This document shows positions 20 to 4,533 of a stretch of DNA of 4,711 nucleotides, one piece after another (position 1 is the stretch's first letter; every line of letters begins with the position of its first letter). Where the stretch lies: the IMG/VR virus record IMGVR_UViG_2547132270_000004, positions 1 to 4,711 of that record. The stretch is one strand, 5' to 3'. The stretch comes from a virus (lineage: Duplodnaviria > Heunggongvirae > Uroviricota > Caudoviricetes). The notes under the pieces were generated by a model. That model worked only from the letters and a program-made list of their open reading frames with translations. It ran no database searches and had not been told where the DNA came from. The position numbers and the translations under genes are program-made.

Positions 20-61
20 AAAAAGGGCGGCAGAGCAGTCACGGAGTAAAACTGATACCGC
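20..61 (-). terminator. Rho-independent terminator forming the 3' end of DicF
   Basis: On the minus strand GGCGG (61-57) pairs with CCGCC (29-25) around an imperfect extended stem, followed directly by a TTTTT run (24-20). Confidence 0.55.
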
Positions 62-77
62 CAAACGCCACCAGAAA
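25..77 (-). ncRNA. dicF: DicF small regulatory RNA (ftsZ-targeting sRNA of the dic division-inhibition operon)
   Basis: Minus strand reads TTTCTGGTGGCGTTTGGCGGTATCAGTTTTACTCCGTGACTGCTCTGCCGCCC followed by TTTTT. This is 53 nt and matches my recollection of E. coli K-12 DicF at all but one position (G for A at the 10th nt). It lies at the distal end of the minus-strand operon downstream of the DicA-like repressor, as in Qin. Identity is from memory, not a search. Confidence 0.8.
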
Positions 78-413: not shown

Positions 414-623
414 ATGCCAAACAAAAAAAGAAATCCGCTTATTGAAAAACAGATTGAATGCCTTGTAAATCAACTCAGGCAATCAGGGTTATTAAAAACT
501 CATTCAGAGTTGAGGCTCACAGAATCAGCATTCGACGATAAATTAAATAATGTCCTTTATAATGGCATTATTGATTTTAATCGTTCTGTTGGTCGCCGCG
601 GCCCTGCTGGTGTTTCCTTATAA
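414..623 (+). CDS. Hypothetical small protein (69 aa), convergent with the minus-strand operon
   Basis: ATG at 414 has a perfect GGAGG (404-408) 5 nt upstream; the ORF-track start at 402 has no RBS. Open frame to TAA 621-623. No recognisable domain. The C-terminal third overlaps an alternative-frame hydrophobic ORF, so the true coding frame is uncertain. Confidence 0.4.
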   Translation: MPNKKRNPLIEKQIECLVNQLRQSGLLKTHSELRLTESAFDDKLNNVLYNGIIDFNRSVGRRGPAGVSL

Positions 624-1262
624 TTACCAGTCAATCCAGAGCGGACCGTGTTCAGCGTAAATATAACTGTACACATCCAGATTATATTTGTGGTCTGTTA
701 AGAACAGGCCGCAAATACATGCCGAAGCTTCAAGGGCAGCGGCTCTGTTACTGAATAACCATGTAGCAACATTCCAGCGTTTTTCTGCATCCCAGTCTTT
801 CTCAAGGCCTGATACCATGAAGAAACCGTTAGTGTTGCCATCAAATAATTCTGTTTCCAGATTTTTAAGCAATGCCTGATGGACTCTTGCCAGGTATTCC
901 GCCGGAATTTTGCCACGAATTCTGATGAGATTGTCATAAACAAACATGTTCCCCGCATATGGCGATTTTTCTTTCTTGTTTTTTAAACCAGCATCATGAG
1001 CAAACTGATCAATTTCTTCTTCCGTTGGTTTCGTATTGATGTTTTGCGCTGTCGTTTCTGCAATTTTATTTGCCACACTCTCTGAGTCGTGTTTATTTAT
1101 AGACGCACAGAAATACAATCCGGTAAACGCATCGCGCACATTACGAGCTATATTATCAGTGTCTTTTTTCGTTACCGATTCCAATGCAAGTTCGTTCAGA
1201 CGATGACGAAGTGTATGTGCTGCAATCTCCTGGATTGAAGTAGGTAAATCTTTAAATTCCAT
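624..1262 (-). CDS. Hypothetical protein (212 aa), unrecognised cargo gene in the repressor-controlled operon
   Basis: Long minus-strand ORF (216 codons in the track). Preferred start is the internal ATG at 1260-1262, preceded by GAGG with a 6-nt spacer (minus strand TGATGAGGTTGACGATGG). The alternative ATG at 1272-1274 overlaps the upstream stop (TGATG). Predicted soluble and acidic, with no motif I recognise. Confidence 0.75.
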   Translation of the reverse strand: MEFKDLPTSIQEIAAHTLRHRLNELALESVTKKDTDNIARNVRDAFTGLYFCASINKHDSESVANKIAETTAQNINTKPTEEEIDQFAHDAGLKNKKEKSPYAGNMFVYDNLIRIRGKIPAEYLARVHQALLKNLETELFDGNTNGFFMVSGLEKDWDAEKRWNVATWLFSNRAAALEASACICGLFLTDHKYNLDVYSYIYAEHGPLWIDW

Positions 1263-1273
1263 CGTCAACCTCA

Positions 1274-1426
1274 TCAGTCAGAGTTTCTTGCTAACCAGCG
1301 ATGCGCGCCAGCTTCGGTTTTAAACGTTTTACTTTTGGTATACGTCATCGCGGTGAACGTGCCGTCCTGGTTGGGAAACACGTCGTACACCAGAGATTCG
1401 TTGTTGCCAAGATCGATAGTATCCAT
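1274..1426 (-). CDS. ydfA: Small protein (50 aa), YdfA-like (DUF1391-type) directly downstream of the dicA-like repressor
   Basis: The track ORF 1274..1519 has no RBS at its first ATG. The internal ATG at 1424-1426 is preceded by GGGGAAATGAGG (SD GAGG, 5-nt spacer). Size (50 aa) and position match ydfA (51 aa) of Qin and ydaF of Rac. The family assignment rests on synteny and size, not on verified sequence identity. Confidence 0.6.
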   Translation of the reverse strand: MDTIDLGNNESLVYDVFPNQDGTFTAMTYTKSKTFKTEAGAHRWLARNSD

Positions 1427-1503
1427 GCTGACCTCATTTCCCCTTAACGCCGGGGTAGCGGAACTGTTTGCTGAGAACACCGTGCGGTGTCTTGATGAAT
1501 GAT

Positions 1504-1555
1504 AATTTAGTTTTCTCATGTTAATTGGTCAAGTATTTTTGATGAGAAAACTCAA
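1504..1555 (-). promoter_or_regulatory. Putative sigma70 promoter of the early-left (dicB-type) operon with two flanking operator-like sites
   Basis: Minus strand: -35 TTGACC (1532-1527), 17-nt spacer, -10 TAAATT (1509-1504). Operator-like TGAGAAAACTCA at 1543-1554 sits just upstream of the -35. An 11/12 copy TGAGAAAACTAA (minus strand, 1518-1507) overlaps the spacer and -10. Confidence 0.45.
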
Positions 1556-1560
1556 TATTT

Positions 1561-1599
1561 AATGCAAAATAAAGCCAATACATTGAAATGTAAGGCTTT
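1561..1599 (-). terminator. Weak AT-rich hairpin plus T-tract downstream of the repressor gene (possible attenuator or terminator)
   Basis: Minus strand AAAGCC (1599-1594) and GGCTTT (1576-1571) form a stem, with an inner ACATT/AATGT pairing, followed by ATTTTGCATT (1570-1561). The stem is AT-rich, so termination efficiency is doubtful. Confidence 0.25.
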
Positions 1600-1616
1600 A
1601 AAATTTGTGAAGGGAG

Positions 1617-2024
1617 TTATTGATGTTTGTTACGTTTGCGAGCTTCTAGTAGCTCGGTGAATAGGCGATTAAAATTCTCAACGCGGGCACGGAGTTCGCT
1701 GATTTGTGCTTGCTGCTCTGATTTTGGAAGTGCGCGATACAATCGCAACATCTCCAACTCATCTTCCGATAAGTCTAAGGCGCTGTTGAGTGCAACTGGT
1801 GGATCTGGTGTTTTATCCTCGTCACCAAACAGTATCCAAGTTGGTGAACATTGCAATACCTCAGCCAGGCGATGCAAATTTTGCCCACGCGGGGCTGTAT
1901 GGTCGCTTTCCCATAGTGAAATTGATGAGCCAGATACGCCAGCAGCTTTGCTTAAATCGTTTTGACTTAAACCAACCTGTTTGCGTCTTTCTCTAATTCG
2001 TTGACCTAAAGTTTTCTCGTTCAT
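1617..2024 (-). CDS. dicA: DicA-like HTH (XRE/Cro-C1 family) prophage repressor, 135 aa
   Basis: N-terminal HTH (QRIRERRKQVGLSQNDLSKAAGVSGSSISLWES) and the motif LQCSPTWILFGDEDK, which I associate with DicA/RacR-family repressors. Start chosen at the ATG at 2022-2024 (MNEKTLGQ...), giving 135 aa as in K-12 DicA. The track start at 2075 would add 17 residues and leave no room for the divergent promoter. Confidence 0.85.
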   Translation of the reverse strand: MNEKTLGQRIRERRKQVGLSQNDLSKAAGVSGSSISLWESDHTAPRGQNLHRLAEVLQCSPTWILFGDEDKTPDPPVALNSALDLSEDELEMLRLYRALPKSEQQAQISELRARVENFNRLFTELLEARKRNKHQ

Positions 2025-2045
2025 ATTTAGATATCTTAATAACCC

Positions 2046-2088
2046 TTGACTTGAGATTCCTTGAGTGATTACCATTGAGAAAACTCAA
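2046..2088 (+). promoter_or_regulatory. Putative promoter of the cro-like gene with an overlapping inverted-repeat operator
   Basis: -35 TTGACT (2046-2051), 18-nt spacer, -10 TACCAT (2070-2075). The 14-bp inverted repeat TTGAG-AAAA-CTCAA (2075-2088) overlaps the -10 and the predicted +1. Extra TTGAG half-sites occur at 2051-2055 and 2061-2065. SD GGAGGGG (2093-2099) precedes the ATG at 2102. Confidence 0.45.
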
Positions 2089-2101
2089 TTTTGGAGGGGC
2101 G

Positions 2102-2329
2102 ATGTTTAAATCAGACGTAATTAATTTTTATGGGACGAAAGCCAAAGTAGCGAAAGCTGCTGGTGTTGATCCATCTGCTGTTTCTCAATGGGGGGCACTG
2201 GTTCCTGAAGGTCGCGCGATGCGCCTGCAAGAGGCATCCGGCGGGGAACTTCAGTACGACCCCAAAGTTTATGACGAATATCGTAAGGCAAAGCGGGCGG
2301 GGCGGCTGAACAATGAAAATCACCCCTGA
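2102..2329 (+). CDS. dicC: Cro-like HTH regulator (DicC/YdaS family), 75 aa
   Basis: Divergent from the repressor gene. ATG at 2102 follows a strong SD GGAGGGG; the track start at 2075 is a TTG lying inside the operator. HTH-like segment GTKAKVAKAAGVDPSAVSQW. Size matches DicC (76 aa). Confidence 0.8.
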   Translation: MFKSDVINFYGTKAKVAKAAGVDPSAVSQWGALVPEGRAMRLQEASGGELQYDPKVYDEYRKAKRAGRLNNENHP

Positions 2330-2834
2330 ACAGGTTTGTGAGGCTCTGGATGCCTGGGTATGCCGACCAGGAATGACACAGGAGCAGGCGACGATATTAA
2401 TCACGGAAGCATTCTGGGCTCTGAAAGAACGCCCGAACATCGATGTTCAACGCGTCACGTTTGATGATGGCGCGGTTGATCAACGGGCGCTGGGCGTCAA
2501 CCGGGTGAAGATATTCGAACGCTGGAAAGCTATTGATACCAGGGATAAGCGGGAAAAATTCACGGCGCTGATTCCGGCAATTATGGAGGCTATCCGGATA
2601 AGTGATTTCAGGTTGTATCGTGAAATTACTGACGGAAAAAGCATTACATACATGATCGCCGGGTTAAACAAAGAATATGGCGACGTGGTGGAGTCAGGTC
2701 TGCTTTTTGCAGATCCGGCTGTTGTGGATCGTGAAACCGACGAACTTATAGAAAAAGCCATTGCTTTCAAGCGTGCGTATCGTCAGCAATATCAACAAAA
2801 AGCCGGATGGAATTATGAGTCTTCTGTTTGCTGA
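2313..2834 (+). CDS. cII-position regulatory protein (173 aa), possibly YdaT-like CII functional equivalent
   Basis: ORF overlaps the cro-like gene by 17 nt (2313-2329) and sits where lambdoid phages carry cII. It shows no resemblance to lambda CII itself. The YdaT-family assignment is by synteny and vague recollection only. Confidence 0.75.
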   Translation: MKITPEQVCEALDAWVCRPGMTQEQATILITEAFWALKERPNIDVQRVTFDDGAVDQRALGVNRVKIFERWKAIDTRDKREKFTALIPAIMEAIRISDFRLYREITDGKSITYMIAGLNKEYGDVVESGLLFADPAVVDRETDELIEKAIAFKRAYRQQYQQKAGWNYESSVC

Positions 2835-3780
2835 ACGCCCACTGGTTATTAACACGCAGCTGGCGATGAAAATTGGCCTGAATGAAGCCATTGTACTGCA
2901 GCAGCTGCATTACTGGTTGAGAGATACTAATTCCGGCATGGAATGTAACGGGGTTCGCTGGATTTATAACACAACAGAACAATGGCTGGAACAGTTCCCG
3001 TTCTGGTCAGAGTCAACGTTAAAACGCGCATTTGCAAGTCTGAAAACGCTGGGGCTTTTGCGTTGCGAAAAGCTCAACAAATCAAAGCGTGACATGACTA
3101 ATTTTTACACGATTAATTACGAGAGTGAGCTTTTAGATGGTGGCAAAGTGAGCGAATCCATCAGGTCAAAATGCGCCGCTCCATCAGGTCAAAATGACAC
3201 GATGGAAGAGGTCAAAATGGCACGCTCCATTGGTTCAAAACGACCCAATGTCATCGGGTCAAAATGGCCTGATGATCTTACAGAGAATACAACAGAGAAT
3301 ACAACAGAGAATAAAAACACTTCTCGTCCGGAAGCTTCGCAACCGGACCCGCAGACGGCTGAACAGGATTTTTTAATCCGACACCCTGATGCGGTTGTGT
3401 TCAGTGCGAAAAAACGCCAGTGGGGAAGTCAGGAAGATTTGGCGTGCGCACAGTGGATCTGGGGACGAATCGTGAGTCTTTACGAGCAGGCGGCCAGCGA
3501 TGATGGCGAGATCACGAGACCGAAAGAACCCAACTGGACAGCATGGGCCAATGACGTGCGCACAATGCGGATGCTGGATGGCAGAACTCACAGACAAATT
3601 TGCGAAATGTTTGGGCGGGTACAGCGGGATCCATTCTGGGTAAAAAACATCATGAGTCCGTCAAAGCTCCGCGAAAAATGGGACGAACTGGTCATCCGCC
3701 TGGGGCGTTCATCTGTACAGCGTTGTGTGAATCATATTTCTGAACCGGACACCGAAATTCCGCCGGGGTTCAGGGGGTAA
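2815..3780 (+). CDS. Phage replication initiator / replisome organizer (lambda O-like), 321 aa, with internal iterons
   Basis: ATG at 2815 is chosen over the track's TTG at 2761; it overlaps the upstream gene's stop by 20 nt. The N-terminal domain has the look of a replisome-organizer DNA-binding domain. The central low-complexity linker is encoded by the iteron array and tandem repeats. It lies immediately upstream of the DnaC-like loader. Confidence 0.85.
   Translation: MSLLFAERPLVINTQLAMKIGLNEAIVLQQLHYWLRDTNSGMECNGVRWIYNTTEQWLEQFPFWSESTLKRAFASLKTLGLLRCEKLNKSKRDMTNFYTINYESELLDGGKVSESIRSKCAAPSGQNDTMEEVKMARSIGSKRPNVIGSKWPDDLTENTTENTTENKNTSRPEASQPDPQTAEQDFLIRHPDAVVFSAKKRQWGSQEDLACAQWIWGRIVSLYEQAASDDGEITRPKEPNWTAWANDVRTMRMLDGRTHRQICEMFGRVQRDPFWVKNIMSPSKLREKWDELVIRLGRSSVQRCVNHISEPDTEIPPGFRG
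3157..3266. repeat. Iteron array (five direct repeats, about 23-bp phasing): putative phage origin of replication inside the initiator gene
   Basis: Core GGTCAAAATG occurs at 3164-3173, 3187-3196, 3210-3219 and 3257-3266, with a variant GGTTCAAAACG at 3232-3242. Extended consensus is about TCCATCAGGTCAAAATG. The arrangement is analogous to ori-lambda within gene O. Confidence 0.6.
3280..3315. repeat. 12-bp tandem repeat ACAGAGAATACA, 2.9 copies, A-rich, encoding TENTTENTTEN
   Basis: Two perfect copies (3280-3291, 3292-3303) and an 11/12 third copy (3304-3315), immediately downstream of the iterons. Confidence 0.7.
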
Positions 3781-3786
3781 CGAACC

Positions 3787-4533
3787 ATGAAAAATATTGC
3801 GACAGGCGGCGTTCTGGAACGTATCCGCAGACTGACCCCGCCACATGTAACCGCCCCATTCAGAACGGTAGCGGAGTGGCGCGAGTGGCAGCTTGCTGAA
3901 GGCCAGAAGCGTAGCGAGGAGATCAACCGCCTGAATCGCCAGTTGCGGGTGGAAAAAATTCTGAATCGCTCAGGCATCCAGCCGTTGCACCGTAAATGCT
4001 CGTTTGCGAATTACCATGTACAGAACGACGGCCAGCGATACGCGTTAAGTCAGGCGAAATCCATCGCTGATGAACTGATGGCCGGATGCACAAATTTCGC
4101 GTTCAGCGGAAAACCTGGTACCGGAAAAAACCATCTGGCGGCGGCTATCGGAAATCGCCTGCTGAAAGACGGCCAGACAGTGATAGTGGTTACTGTGGCT
4201 GATGTTATGAGTGCCCTGCACGCCAGCTATGACGACGGGCAGTCAGGCGAAAAATTTTTGCGGGAACTGTGCGAAGTGGATCTGCTGGTTCTTGATGAAA
4301 TTGGCATTCAGCGTGAGACGAAAAACGAGCAGGTGGTGCTGCATCAGATTGTTGATCGCCGGACAGCATCGATGCGCAGTATGGGGATGCTGACAAACCT
4401 GAACTATGAGGCCATGAAAACGTTGCTCGGCGAGAGGATTATGGATCGCATGACCATGAACGGTGGGCGCTGGGTGACTTTTAACTGGGAAAGCTGGCGC
4501 CAGAATGTCGTCCAGCCAGGAATCACGAAGTAA
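3787..4533 (+). CDS. dnaC: DnaC-family AAA+ replicative helicase loader (prophage DnaC paralog), 248 aa
   Basis: Walker [18 protein letters not shown] and Walker [10 protein letters not shown]. Collinear similarity to E. coli DnaC along the whole length (MKN..., [33 protein letters not shown]). RBS GGGGG at 3772-3776. Confidence 0.95.

What the first reader, a model, noticed from the sequence alone, without database searches (positions are those of the whole stretch)
1504..1555. Repressor operator motif TGAG-AAAA-CTCA flanking the early-left promoter
The 12-bp inverted repeat at 1543-1554 and an 11/12 copy at 1507-1518 (opposite orientation) bracket a -35 TTGACC / -10 TAAATT promoter that reads into the ydfA-like and 212-aa operon. 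The centre-to-centre spacing is about 36 bp. This is the architecture expected if the DicA-like repressor shuts off the dicB-type operon in the lysogen, and it implies the 212-aa gene is silent until derepression. The predicted start site near 1497 also argues for the 1426 start of the small gene.
Basis: partly seen in the sequence, partly recalled or inferred. Interest (0 to 1): 0.55.

Follow-up and report, generated by a model that had tools for sequence, protein, structure and literature searches.

The report
Prophage repressor operators at early-left promoter
These are the two binding sites through which a prophage's DicA-like repressor most likely shuts off the promoter of its cell-division-inhibitor (dicF/dicB-type) operon; this is an ordinary, well-understood kind of phage switch, here in a version with its own recognition sequence.

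Summary
TGAGAAAACTCA lies at 1543-1554, and an 11/12 copy lies inverted at 1507-1518, 36 bp away centre to centre. They flank the -35 of a minus-strand promoter (TTGACC, 17 bp, TAAATT; start about 1496-1497). A third, perfect copy, not mentioned in this finding, sits at 2076-2087 on the divergent cro-side promoter.

This is not chance. No shuffle out of 2000 gave even two such matches. In the whole 45-kb related phage HannyBb the only three matches are these same three positions.

The window is a lambdoid E. coli prophage immunity region of the mEp460/HannyBb type. It carries DicF at 25-76 on the same strand, so the promoter is the counterpart of dicBp of prophage Qin.

The strongest evidence is covariation. 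At least four immunity types share the same layout, but the motif changes together with the recognition helix of the repressor and the HTH part of Cro. The neighbouring leader, ydfA and YdaT-like gene stay nearly the same.

This is a new member of a known kind, of low interest. A conserved leader RNA remains unexplained.

The parts
1505..1520 (-). OL1, the promoter-proximal operator. It reads CATGAGAAAACTAAAT on the minus strand (12-bp core 1507-1518) and spans -8 to -23 of the early-left promoter. Its one core mismatch (C to A) is the -11 A of the -10 hexamer.
   Evidence: The core is identical in 53 of 56 distinct haplotypes. A homologous type-specific site occupies the same place in the other immunity types.
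1541..1556 (+). OL2, the distal operator, GATGAGAAAACTCAAT (core 1543-1554), spanning -44 to -59. It lies upstream of the -35, 36 bp from OL1.
   Evidence: The core is identical in 47 of 56 haplotypes, and the OL1-OL2 distance is 36 bp in all 56. It is conserved in Buttiauxella despite diverged flanks.
1504..1532 (-). Early-left promoter, the counterpart of Qin dicBp and lambda PL: -35 TTGACC (1532..1527), 17-bp spacer, -10 TAAATT (1509..1504). The predicted start is at 1496-1497.
   Evidence: The -10 is invariant and the spacer is 17 bp in all 56 haplotypes. The sequence shared by all immunity types begins at CATCAA, at the predicted +1.
1427..1497 (-). Conserved 5' leader of the early-left transcript. 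It has an invariant GTTCYG and two short hairpins. Its function is unexplained.
1274..1426 (-). ydfA-like gene (DUF1391, 50 aa), the first gene of the operon.
   Evidence: E 1.9e-27; annotation of relatives.
624..1262 (-). 212-aa gene of unknown function (phrog_2151), the second gene of the operon.
   Evidence: annotated at 639 nt in relatives.
25..76 (-). DicF sRNA gene, downstream in the same transcription direction.
   Evidence: Rfam RF00039, 76.4 bits (gathering score 48), E 3e-16, full length.
1570..1600 (-). Hairpin followed by a U-tract after the repressor stop codon. It is a probable intrinsic terminator that insulates the early-left promoter from repressor read-through.
   Evidence: -11.3 kcal/mol, z -3.1.
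1617..2024 (-). DicA-family repressor gene (135 aa; HTH_3; no S24 peptidase domain).
2074..2089 (+). OR1, a perfect 16-bp palindrome ATTGAGAAAACTCAAT spanning -8 to +7 of the cro-side promoter. It is the positional homologue of the Qin operator Oc.
   Evidence: Oc sequence from PMC3441716.
2050..2065 (+). OR2 candidate, CTTGAGATTCCTTGAG. It has one good half-site and overlaps the -35 of the cro-side promoter. It is a weak candidate.
   Evidence: Read directly from the sequence. Types B and C have an equivalent one-good-half-site sequence at the same place.
2025..2040 (+). OR3 candidate, ATTTAGATATCTTAAT (arms 10/12). It abuts the repressor start codon.
   Evidence: identical in 55 of 56 haplotypes; equivalents in types B and C.
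2046..2075 (+). Cro-side promoter, the counterpart of lambda PR and Qin dicCp: TTGACT, 18 bp, TACCAT.
2102..2329 (+). cro/dicC-like gene (P22_Cro family). The N-terminal 32 aa are specific to the immunity type. The C-terminal 43 aa are identical in window, L004 and L005 and differ by 1-4 residues in mEp460, L003 and K-12.

Best explanation
The two sites are the left operators (OL1 and OL2) of a lambdoid prophage immunity switch.

Inferred mechanism: dimers of the 135-aa DicA-family repressor encoded at 1617-2024 bind 16-bp pseudo-palindromes with consensus ATTGAG-AAAA-CTCAAT. OL1 lies between the -35 and -10 and shares three bases with the -10, so a bound repressor physically excludes RNA polymerase. 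OL2 lies just upstream of the -35 at a fixed 36 bp. It probably strengthens occupancy by cooperative binding, or it blocks upstream polymerase contacts. The same protein binds OR1 over the start of the divergent cro-type promoter.

In the lysogen this keeps the leftward operon off. That operon runs ydfA-like, the 212-aa gene, DicF and, in relatives, dicB, ydfD and recE. The repressor has no RecA-cleavable peptidase domain, so release would come from an antirepressor or from flipping of the repressor/Cro switch, as described for Qin.

Shown here: the sites, their positions, their non-random occurrence, their conservation, and their covariation with the repressor and Cro HTH.

Inferred: physical binding, steric occlusion, cooperativity and the route of induction.
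For: - **Site statistics:**
- **Promoter geometry:**. The -10 is invariant, the spacer is 17 bp and the OL1-OL2 distance is 36 bp in all 56 haplotypes.
- **Phylogenetic footprint:** variable columns cluster between the -10 and +1, between OL1 and the -35, and just after the -35. The operator cores and hexamers stay fixed.
- **Covariation across immunity types with the same layout:**
  - Type A (window, mEp460, HannyBb, E24377A): TTGAG-N4-CTCAA.
  - Type B (PPompW): CTTAG-N6-CTAAG.
  - Type C (K-12 Qin): GTTAG-N6-CTAAC. The type C site at the cro-side promoter equals the experimentally defined DicA operator Oc.
  - phiES15: ACTAAC-TTTT-GTTAGT.
- **Conservation across genera:** Buttiauxella repressors are 75-76% identical, share the type A recognition helix, and keep TTGAGAAAACTCAA at both promoters although the flanks have diverged.
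- **Recognition helices differ as expected:** S-G/D-S-S-I-S-L-W-E-S in type A against S-H-V-S-V-S-Q-W-E-R in DicA.
- **Neighbours do not covary:** YdaT-like, ydfA and the leader are 82-100% identical across types.
- **Operon identity:** DicF is in the window.
- **Homologous experiment:** deleting dicA in K-12 derepresses dicBp 22-fold, while deleting dicC has no effect (PMC10448788).
Against: - There are no binding, footprint or transcription-start data for this sequence or for any type A phage. The motif appears in no phage paper in the searchable library.
- Even for K-12, the summary in the Reg-Seq paper calls the DicA site at dicB low-evidence, with its location unknown (PMC7567609).
- In K-12 only the symmetric Oc bound DicA in vivo; Om and Oa did not. 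The less symmetric OL1 (13/16) and the OR2 and OR3 candidates may therefore bind weakly or only cooperatively.
- A spacing of 36 bp is about 3.4 helical turns, which is not an obvious same-face arrangement for cooperative binding.
Confidence: 0.88

Rival explanations
1. The sites are mainly targets of the Cro/DicC-like protein (2102-2329) rather than the CI-like repressor. Cro would turn down leftward transcription during lytic growth.
For: The N-terminal HTH part of Cro is as type-specific as the repressor and covaries with the motif equally well. In lambdoid switches Cro and CI share operators (established knowledge).
Against: In the homologous Qin system, deleting dicC did not change dicBp activity, whereas deleting dicA derepressed it 22-fold. 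Shared use by both proteins is the expected situation and is compatible with the main explanation. Only exclusive use by Cro would be a true rival.
Confidence: 0.06
2. The 15-nt inverted repeat (1505-1519 and 1542-1556) acts as a nucleic-acid structure, either an RNA hairpin/terminator or a cruciform, not as two protein-binding sites.
For: If transcribed, the region would fold at -11.2 kcal/mol with z -3.7. The Buttiauxella and type C regions also fold.
Against: - Any two copies of a palindromic operator will pair, so this fold carries no independent information.
- Type B lacks a consistent long hairpin.
- The third copy 533 bp away at the other promoter is not explained.
- A separate terminator hairpin (1570-1600) already ends the repressor transcript upstream of this region.
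- The motif covaries with a protein's recognition helix.
Confidence: 0.02
3. The sites belong to the YdaT/CII-like regulator (2313-2834), which in Rac binds inverted repeats in the immunity region.
For: Rac YdaT binds ATGATT-N6-AATCAA-type repeats between racR and ydaS (PMC11879457). Lambda CII-type activators bind either side of a -35 (established knowledge).
Against: The YdaT-like protein is 96% identical between type A and type C phages and 85-86% identical to type B, yet their motifs are different. The motif does not match the published YdaT box.
Confidence: 0.02
4. The motif copies are a chance repeat of an AT-rich sequence in AT-rich intergenic DNA.
For: Each 12-mer has only 4-bp arms. 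Such short palindromes are individually common.
Against: None of 2000 shuffles reached even two matches. The only matches in a 45-kb phage genome are the three homologous positions. The sites are conserved across genera.
Confidence: 0.01

Closest known systems
DicA / dicBp / dicCp switch of cryptic prophage Qin (E. coli K-12)
   Same: - Same gene order: ydfA ... dicF ... on one side, repressor, then a divergent cro/dicC followed by a ydaT-like gene.
- Same promoter positions and the same conserved leader and ydfA.
- A 135-aa repressor without a cleavage domain.
- One operator over the start of the cro-side promoter and two sites either side of the -35 of the leftward promoter, 35-36 bp apart.
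   Different: - The repressor is only 54% identical, and its recognition helix differs at the base-contacting positions.
- The operator half-site is TTGAG rather than TTAG(T). The phage should therefore be heteroimmune to Qin.
- The operon carries a 212-aa gene in the place of ydfB and ydfC.
Phage P22 C2 repressor and its OL/OR operators
   Same: The N-terminal domain is homologous (PDB 1adr, E 2e-15). The operators are pseudo-palindromes with an A/T-rich central tetrad that the protein does not contact (established knowledge). The half-site occupies the same register (TT..G).
   Different: P22 C2 is 216 aa with a RecA-cleavable C-terminal domain, whereas this protein is 135 aa with a short helical tail. 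The half-site sequence is different.
Lambda CI with OL1-3 and OR1-3
   Same: The switch has the same logic: a divergent repressor/cro pair, the same operators at the left and right promoters, an operator overlapping core promoter elements, and an exchangeable immunity cassette.
   Different: Only two recognisable sites occur at the left promoter, 36 bp apart and flanking the -35, rather than three adjacent sites at spacings of about 20-24 bp (from memory). No N gene and no boxA were found. Induction is probably not by RecA cleavage.
RacR / YdaS / YdaT region of prophage Rac
   Same: It is the same kind of immunity region, with CI-like, Cro-like and CII-like (YdaT) regulators (PMC11879457). The window also encodes a YdaT-family protein.
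   Different: The repressor family member and the operators are different. The YdaT box (ATGATT-N6-AATCAA) is unrelated to this motif.

Membership tests
Lambdoid CI/Cro-type immunity switch (OL/OR operators) | A CI-like HTH repressor gene transcribed divergently from a cro-like gene | tested here: met
   HTH_3 repressor at 1617-2024 (-) and P22_Cro-family gene at 2102-2329 (+).
Lambdoid CI/Cro-type immunity switch (OL/OR operators) | The same operator motif is present at both the leftward and the rightward early promoters | tested here: met
   TGAGAAAACTCA at 1507-1518, 1543-1554 and 2076-2087, and at no other position in the window with at most 1 mismatch.
Lambdoid CI/Cro-type immunity switch (OL/OR operators) | Operators overlap core promoter elements | tested here: met
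   OL1 spans -8 to -23 of the leftward promoter and OR1 spans -8 to +7 of the rightward promoter, relative to predicted starts. The starts are predicted, not mapped.
Lambdoid CI/Cro-type immunity switch (OL/OR operators) | Operator sequence and repressor specificity are exchanged together as an immunity cassette | tested here: met
   Four immunity types share conserved flanks. The motif changes together with the repressor and the Cro HTH. The cassette boundaries lie at about 1497 and at about codon 32 of cro.
Lambdoid CI/Cro-type immunity switch (OL/OR operators) | The repressor physically binds the sites and represses the promoter | not testable with these tools
   This needs EMSA or footprinting and reporter assays. 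Only the homologous K-12 result is available (PMC10448788, PMC3441716).
dicB-type (dicBF) operon under a DicA-family repressor | The leftward operon carries ydfA, dicF and dicB downstream of the repressed promoter | tested here: met
   The window has ydfA-like (DUF1391) and DicF (RF00039, 76 bits). dicB lies just beyond the window in close relatives.
dicB-type (dicBF) operon under a DicA-family repressor | The repressor is a full-length homologue of DicA (about 135 aa, no S24 peptidase domain) | tested here: met
   54% identity over the full length, including the conserved C-terminal part. Only HTH-type (Cro/C1-like) Pfam domains were found.
K-12 DicA regulon (same immunity as Qin) | The operator matches the DicA site Oc, TTGTTAGTCATAACTAACAA | tested here: not met
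   The window's sites have TTGAG/CTCAA half-sites. A single base change in Oc abolishes DicA binding in vivo. The system is therefore predicted to be heteroimmune and is not filed under the K-12 DicA regulon.
Lambda N / nut antitermination at the left operon | boxA plus boxB downstream of both early promoters, with an arginine-rich N protein as the first gene | tested here: not met
   There is no boxA in the window. The leader element occurs once in phage HannyBb. The first gene is ydfA-like and is not arginine-rich.

The most novel reading that the evidence does not exclude
Two novel readings are not excluded.

1. The fixed 36-bp pair of sites around the -35 may reflect a repression geometry unlike lambda's adjacent-site cooperativity. 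A short, non-cleavable repressor would bridge the two sites and trap or wrap the -35.

2. The highly conserved about 70-nt leader that begins exactly at the predicted start may be a new cis-acting RNA signal for the whole dicBF-type operon, for example a factor-independent antitermination or processing element. It has an invariant GTTCYG followed by a hairpin whose stem sequence differs between relatives, and it is kept upstream of different first genes in several genera.
Probability: 0.12. Interest if true: 0.5.

Novelty: new member of a known kind. Interest (0 to 1): 0.2.

Why it matters
- **Immunity specificity:** the result defines the operator sequence, and so the immunity specificity, of a prophage type present in about 15% of complete E. 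coli genomes (787 of 5426) and in the active phages mEp460_ev081 and HannyBb.
- **What it controls:** the switch governs DicF and DicB, which inhibit host cell division and modify phage susceptibility.
- **Prediction for K-12:** the comparison also gives explicit sites at K-12 dicBp (OL1 GATTAGCCATGACTAACA, OL2 TATGCTATAGCTAACA). The Reg-Seq paper (PMC7567609) describes the DicA binding location there as unknown.
- **Annotation:** the result settles the start of the ydfA-like gene. It also flags two over-long gene calls in the HannyBb record.

None of this changes how such switches are understood.

Tried and rejected
- **Hairpin or cruciform reading of the inverted repeat.** Rejected. Two palindromic sites always pair, type B lacks a consistent long hairpin, and the reading does not explain the third copy.
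- **YdaT/CII-like protein as the binder.** Rejected. That protein is 96% identical across types that have different motifs.
- **A third operator between or beside OL1 and OL2.** None found. The interval 1520-1526 is the most variable stretch of the region, and the 16-mer scan finds nothing else there.
- **N/nut reading of the leader.** Not supported. There is no boxA, the element occurs once per phage, and no N-like first gene is present.
- **Rfam.** No known RNA family matches the leader.
- **RNAalifold on a MAFFT alignment of leaders.** It gave no structure because the hairpins were misaligned. A per-sequence test gave only suggestive support.
- **Literature search for the motif string.** Only unrelated human and fish primer sequences were returned.
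- **Inferring the K-12 start site from a published RNase III cleavage position.** If '813/814' (PMC10448788) is numbered from the transcription start, the start falls within about 5 nt of the predicted one. The numbering origin is not stated in the text I could read, so I give this no weight.
- **PADLOC.** No defence-system match for the 212-aa gene or the 69-aa convergent ORF; the ydfA-like product gave one weak AbiEi hit (E 0.005, 14.5 bits), not meaningful.

Full report
**What is in the sequence**

On the plus strand, 1501-1560 reads gataaTTTAGTTTTCTCAtgttaattGGTCAAgtatttttgaTGAGAAAACTCAatattt. The exact 12-mer TGAGAAAACTCA lies at 1543-1554. Its reverse complement with one mismatch (TGAGAAAACTAA) lies at 1507-1518. 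The centres are 36 bp apart.

A consensus scan, run independently of the finding, reports one minus-strand promoter in 1200-2400. It has TTGACC at 1532..1527, a 17-bp spacer and TAAATT at 1509..1504. This predicts a start at about 1496-1497.

Relative to that start, the proximal site spans -10 to -21 (-8 to -23 in a 16-bp frame). The distal site spans -46 to -57. The sites therefore flank the -35, and the proximal one shares three bases with the -10.

The single mismatch of the proximal site (C to A) is the -11 A of TAAATT. A perfect operator there would destroy the -10 hexamer. This follows directly from the sequence.

The finding does not mention a third exact copy at 2076-2087. It lies inside a perfect 16-bp palindrome, ATTGAGAAAACTCAAT (2074-2089). 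That palindrome sits just after the -10 of the only plus-strand promoter found, TTGACT-18-TACCAT at 2046-2075.

**Is it more than chance?**

With at most one mismatch there are three matches in the window. The mean in 2000 dinucleotide-preserving shuffles is 0.04, and no shuffle reached two. All three lie in the 267 non-coding bases on either side of the repressor gene.

In the complete genome of the related phage HannyBb (45,272 bp), the only three matches are the homologous positions, against 0.29 expected.

**What the locus is**

Pfam assigns the following genes:

| Coordinates | Strand | Assignment |
|---|---|---|
| 1274-1426 | - | DUF1391 (YdfA) |
| 1617-2024 | - | HTH_3 repressor, 135 aa |
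| 2102-2329 | + | P22_Cro family |
| 2313-2834 | + | YdaT family |
| 3787-4533 | + | IstB/DnaC-like ATPase |

PHROGs assigns 2815-3780 to an O-like replication initiator. Rfam finds a full-length DicF sRNA at 25-76 on the minus strand, at 76.4 bits against a gathering score of 48.

The 1.1-kb core is 97-98% identical to prophages of E. coli tcmA_3 and E24377A. It is 91% identical to the active phages mEp460_ev081 and HannyBb. In total, 787 of 5426 complete E. coli genomes carry at least 80% of it.

In relatives the leftward operon continues into dicB, ydfD and recE. The minus-strand promoter is therefore the positional homologue of dicBp of cryptic prophage Qin and of lambda PL.

**Comparative test of the operator idea**

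I extracted the two intergenic regions from nine annotated relatives and from K-12 Qin. All share a nearly identical ydfA leader and the same promoter geometry. They fall into immunity types:

| Type | Members | Left promoter sites | Site at cro-side promoter |
|---|---|---|---|
| A | window, mEp460, HannyBb, tcmA_3, E24377A | TTTAGTTTTCTCA ... TGAGAAAACTCA | ATTGAGAAAACTCAAT |
| B | PPompW phages | TTTAGAATAGCCTAAG ... TGTAGAAAAACCTAAG | CTTAGGAAAATCTAAG |
| C | K-12 Qin and a second E. coli strain | GATTAGCCATGACTAACA ... TATGCTATAGCTAACA | TTGTTAGTTATGACTAACAA |

The type C site at the cro-side promoter is the reverse complement of Oc. Oc is the only experimentally supported DicA operator, and a single base change in it abolishes binding in vivo (PMC3441716).

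Cronobacter phage phiES15 adds a fourth type, ACTAAC-TTTT-GTTAGT, in the same layout.

The repressors of types A, B and C are about 54% identical to one another's type A counterpart. They differ in the recognition helix:

- Type A: S-G/D-S-S-I-S-L-W-E-S
- K-12 DicA: S-H-V-S-V-S-Q-W-E-R
- P22 C2: S-N-V-A-I-S-Q-W-E-R

The N-terminal domain is homologous to P22 C2 (PDB 1adr, E 2e-15).

Cro proteins are type-specific only in their first 32 residues. Their last 43 residues are identical in window, L004 and L005 and differ at 1-4 positions in the other three. The YdaT-like protein is 96% identical between types A and C.

The motif therefore tracks the HTH of the repressor and of Cro, and nothing else. 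The exchangeable cassette runs from about 1497, which is the predicted start of the leftward transcript, to about codon 32 of cro.

**Conservation within and beyond type A**

Ninety-three further loci encoding relatives of the repressor were fetched. Among 56 distinct type A haplotypes:

- The -10 is invariant.
- The spacer is always 17 bp.
- The OL1-OL2 distance is always 36 bp.
- The operator cores are identical in 53 (OL1), 47 (OL2) and 53 (OR1) haplotypes.

The variable columns cluster at 1498-1503, 1520-1526, 1534-1536 and 1541. These are the gaps between the functional elements.

Two Buttiauxella prophages have repressors only 75-76% identical, with the same recognition helix and strongly diverged flanks. 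They still carry TTGAGAAAACTCAA-type sites at both positions of the left promoter and at the right promoter. A Citrobacter prophage with the K-12-type helix carries K-12-type sites.

**Mechanism**

The best-supported reading is classical repression. Dimers of the repressor bind OL1 and exclude RNA polymerase from the spacer and the -10. OL2 assists at a fixed distance upstream of the -35. OR1 blocks the cro-side promoter.

Weaker candidates lie 24 and 25 bp further along at the right promoter. They are OR2 (2050-2065) and OR3 (2025-2040, abutting the repressor ATG), and they have equivalents in types B and C. In K-12 the analogous Om and Oa did not bind DicA on their own.

All three strong sites have an AAAA centre, while the weak candidates do not. 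In the 434 and P22 systems, non-contacted central bases tune affinity (established knowledge). The same may apply here (inference).

The repressor has no peptidase domain. Induction is therefore expected through an antirepressor or by switch flipping, as shown for Qin with Rem and with DicC-dependent spontaneous induction. In Qin, deleting dicA derepresses dicBp 22-fold (PMC10448788).

Binding, occlusion and cooperativity are inferred, not shown.

**Rivals**

- **Cro as the only binder.** Unlikely by homology, because deleting dicC has no effect on dicBp. Shared use of the sites by Cro and the repressor is expected.
- **RNA hairpin formed by the two sites.** It does fold (z -3.7), but that is an automatic consequence of two palindromes. 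The long hairpin is not conserved in type B. It cannot explain the third copy. It also lies beyond a separate terminator hairpin at 1570-1600 (-11.3 kcal/mol, z -3.1).
- **YdaT as the binder.** Excluded by the lack of covariation.

**The small-gene start**

The ATG at 1519 lies at -22, inside OL1, so it is upstream of the predicted start. The 1426 start has three lines of support. It has a GAGG 5 nt upstream. It gives a 50-aa product that DUF1391 covers from residue 2 to 49. RefSeq annotation of relatives uses it.

**Comparison and novelty**

This is the Qin DicA/dicBp/dicCp architecture with a different specificity, so it is predicted to be heteroimmune to Qin. It fails the test 'operator equals Oc' and should not be filed under the K-12 DicA regulon. 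It meets every testable feature of a lambdoid immunity switch and of a dicBF-type operon.

The motif string appears in no phage paper in the searchable library. The 2023 Qin paper notes only that mEp460_ev081 has dicA, dicC, dicB, dicF and rem homologues.

The verdict is a correct observation and a supported interpretation. It is a new member of a known kind, of low interest.

**Left unexplained**

The about 70-nt leader (1427-1497, minus strand) is 97-100% conserved across immunity types. It is also recognisable upstream of unrelated first genes in several genera. It has an invariant GTTCYG followed, usually 3 nt later, by a 4-5-bp hairpin whose stem sequence differs between relatives.

Support for structure is only suggestive: mean z is -2.3, and the whole-leader z is -0.13. 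It matches no Rfam family. No boxA is present. The element occurs once per phage.

Noticed in passing
window 1427-1497 (- strand); also L012, L014, L017-L022, L104, L105: The 5' leader of the early-left transcript is almost identical in all immunity types. It begins exactly at the predicted start. It recurs in other genera upstream of different first genes. It has an invariant GTTCYG followed by a short hairpin with differing stem sequences; some relatives have a lambda boxB-like GAAAGA loop. A second hairpin lies nearer the 5' end. Phage Tritos, which has a different CI family, shares only the 3' half, next to ydfA. There is no Rfam match, no boxA, and only one copy per phage. Possible roles are antitermination, processing or translation control.
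   Followed up: partly
window 25-76 (- strand): A full-length DicF sRNA gene (Rfam RF00039, 76.4 bits) lies downstream in the same direction as the early-left promoter. This shows the operon is of the dicBF type.
   Followed up: yes
window 1570-1600 (- strand), U-tract to about 1562: A hairpin (-11.3 kcal/mol, z -3.1) followed by UUUAUUUU lies directly after the repressor stop codon. It is a probable intrinsic terminator that ends the repressor transcript just before OL2. The equivalents in types B and C have A-runs before and T-runs after, so they look bidirectional.
   Followed up: partly
window 2025-2040 and 2050-2065: Two weaker operator-like sequences lie 25 and 24 bp apart to the left of OR1. 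They are ATTTAGATATCTTAAT, which abuts the repressor ATG, and CTTGAGATTCCTTGAG, which overlaps the -35 of the cro-side promoter. Together with OR1 they give a lambda-like three-site arrangement. One half of the first is a P22-type half-site (TTAAG).
   Followed up: partly
window about 1497 to about 2198: The exchangeable immunity cassette has sharp boundaries. On the left it ends at the predicted start of the early-left transcript. On the right it ends inside cro at about codon 32. The Cro C-terminal 43 residues are identical or nearly so across immunity types (0-4 differences), and the YdaT-like protein is 85-96% identical.
   Followed up: yes
window 624-1262 (- strand): The 212-aa protein (phrog_2151, unknown function, no Pfam or PADLOC match) shares its N-terminal 50-75 residues with four other PHROG families. 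The first gene of a Buttiauxella prophage also begins MMEFKNLP. This suggests a conserved N-terminal module joined to variable C-terminal parts, in the slot that ydfB and ydfC occupy in Qin.
   Followed up: partly
window 414-623 (+ strand): A 69-aa ORF (phrog_4274, unknown function; annotated in relatives) lies convergent with the leftward operon, between the 212-aa gene and dicF. Its transcription would be antisense to the operon transcript.
   Followed up: no
L103 (phage HannyBb, PP925841.1) 29774-30085 and 30122-30580: The GenBank record calls over-long ORFs for the ydfA-like gene (312 nt) and the repressor (459 nt, starting next to OR1). These calls run through the predicted promoters and operators and are probably start-codon mis-annotations.
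   Followed up: partly
L017 (Citrobacter sp. NCU1), downstream of its leader: A GC-rich hairpin is followed by CGCTCTTTAAAAATC, a good match to the boxA consensus. Nothing comparable is present in the window. Some relatives may therefore use N/nut-type antitermination in this operon.
   Followed up: no
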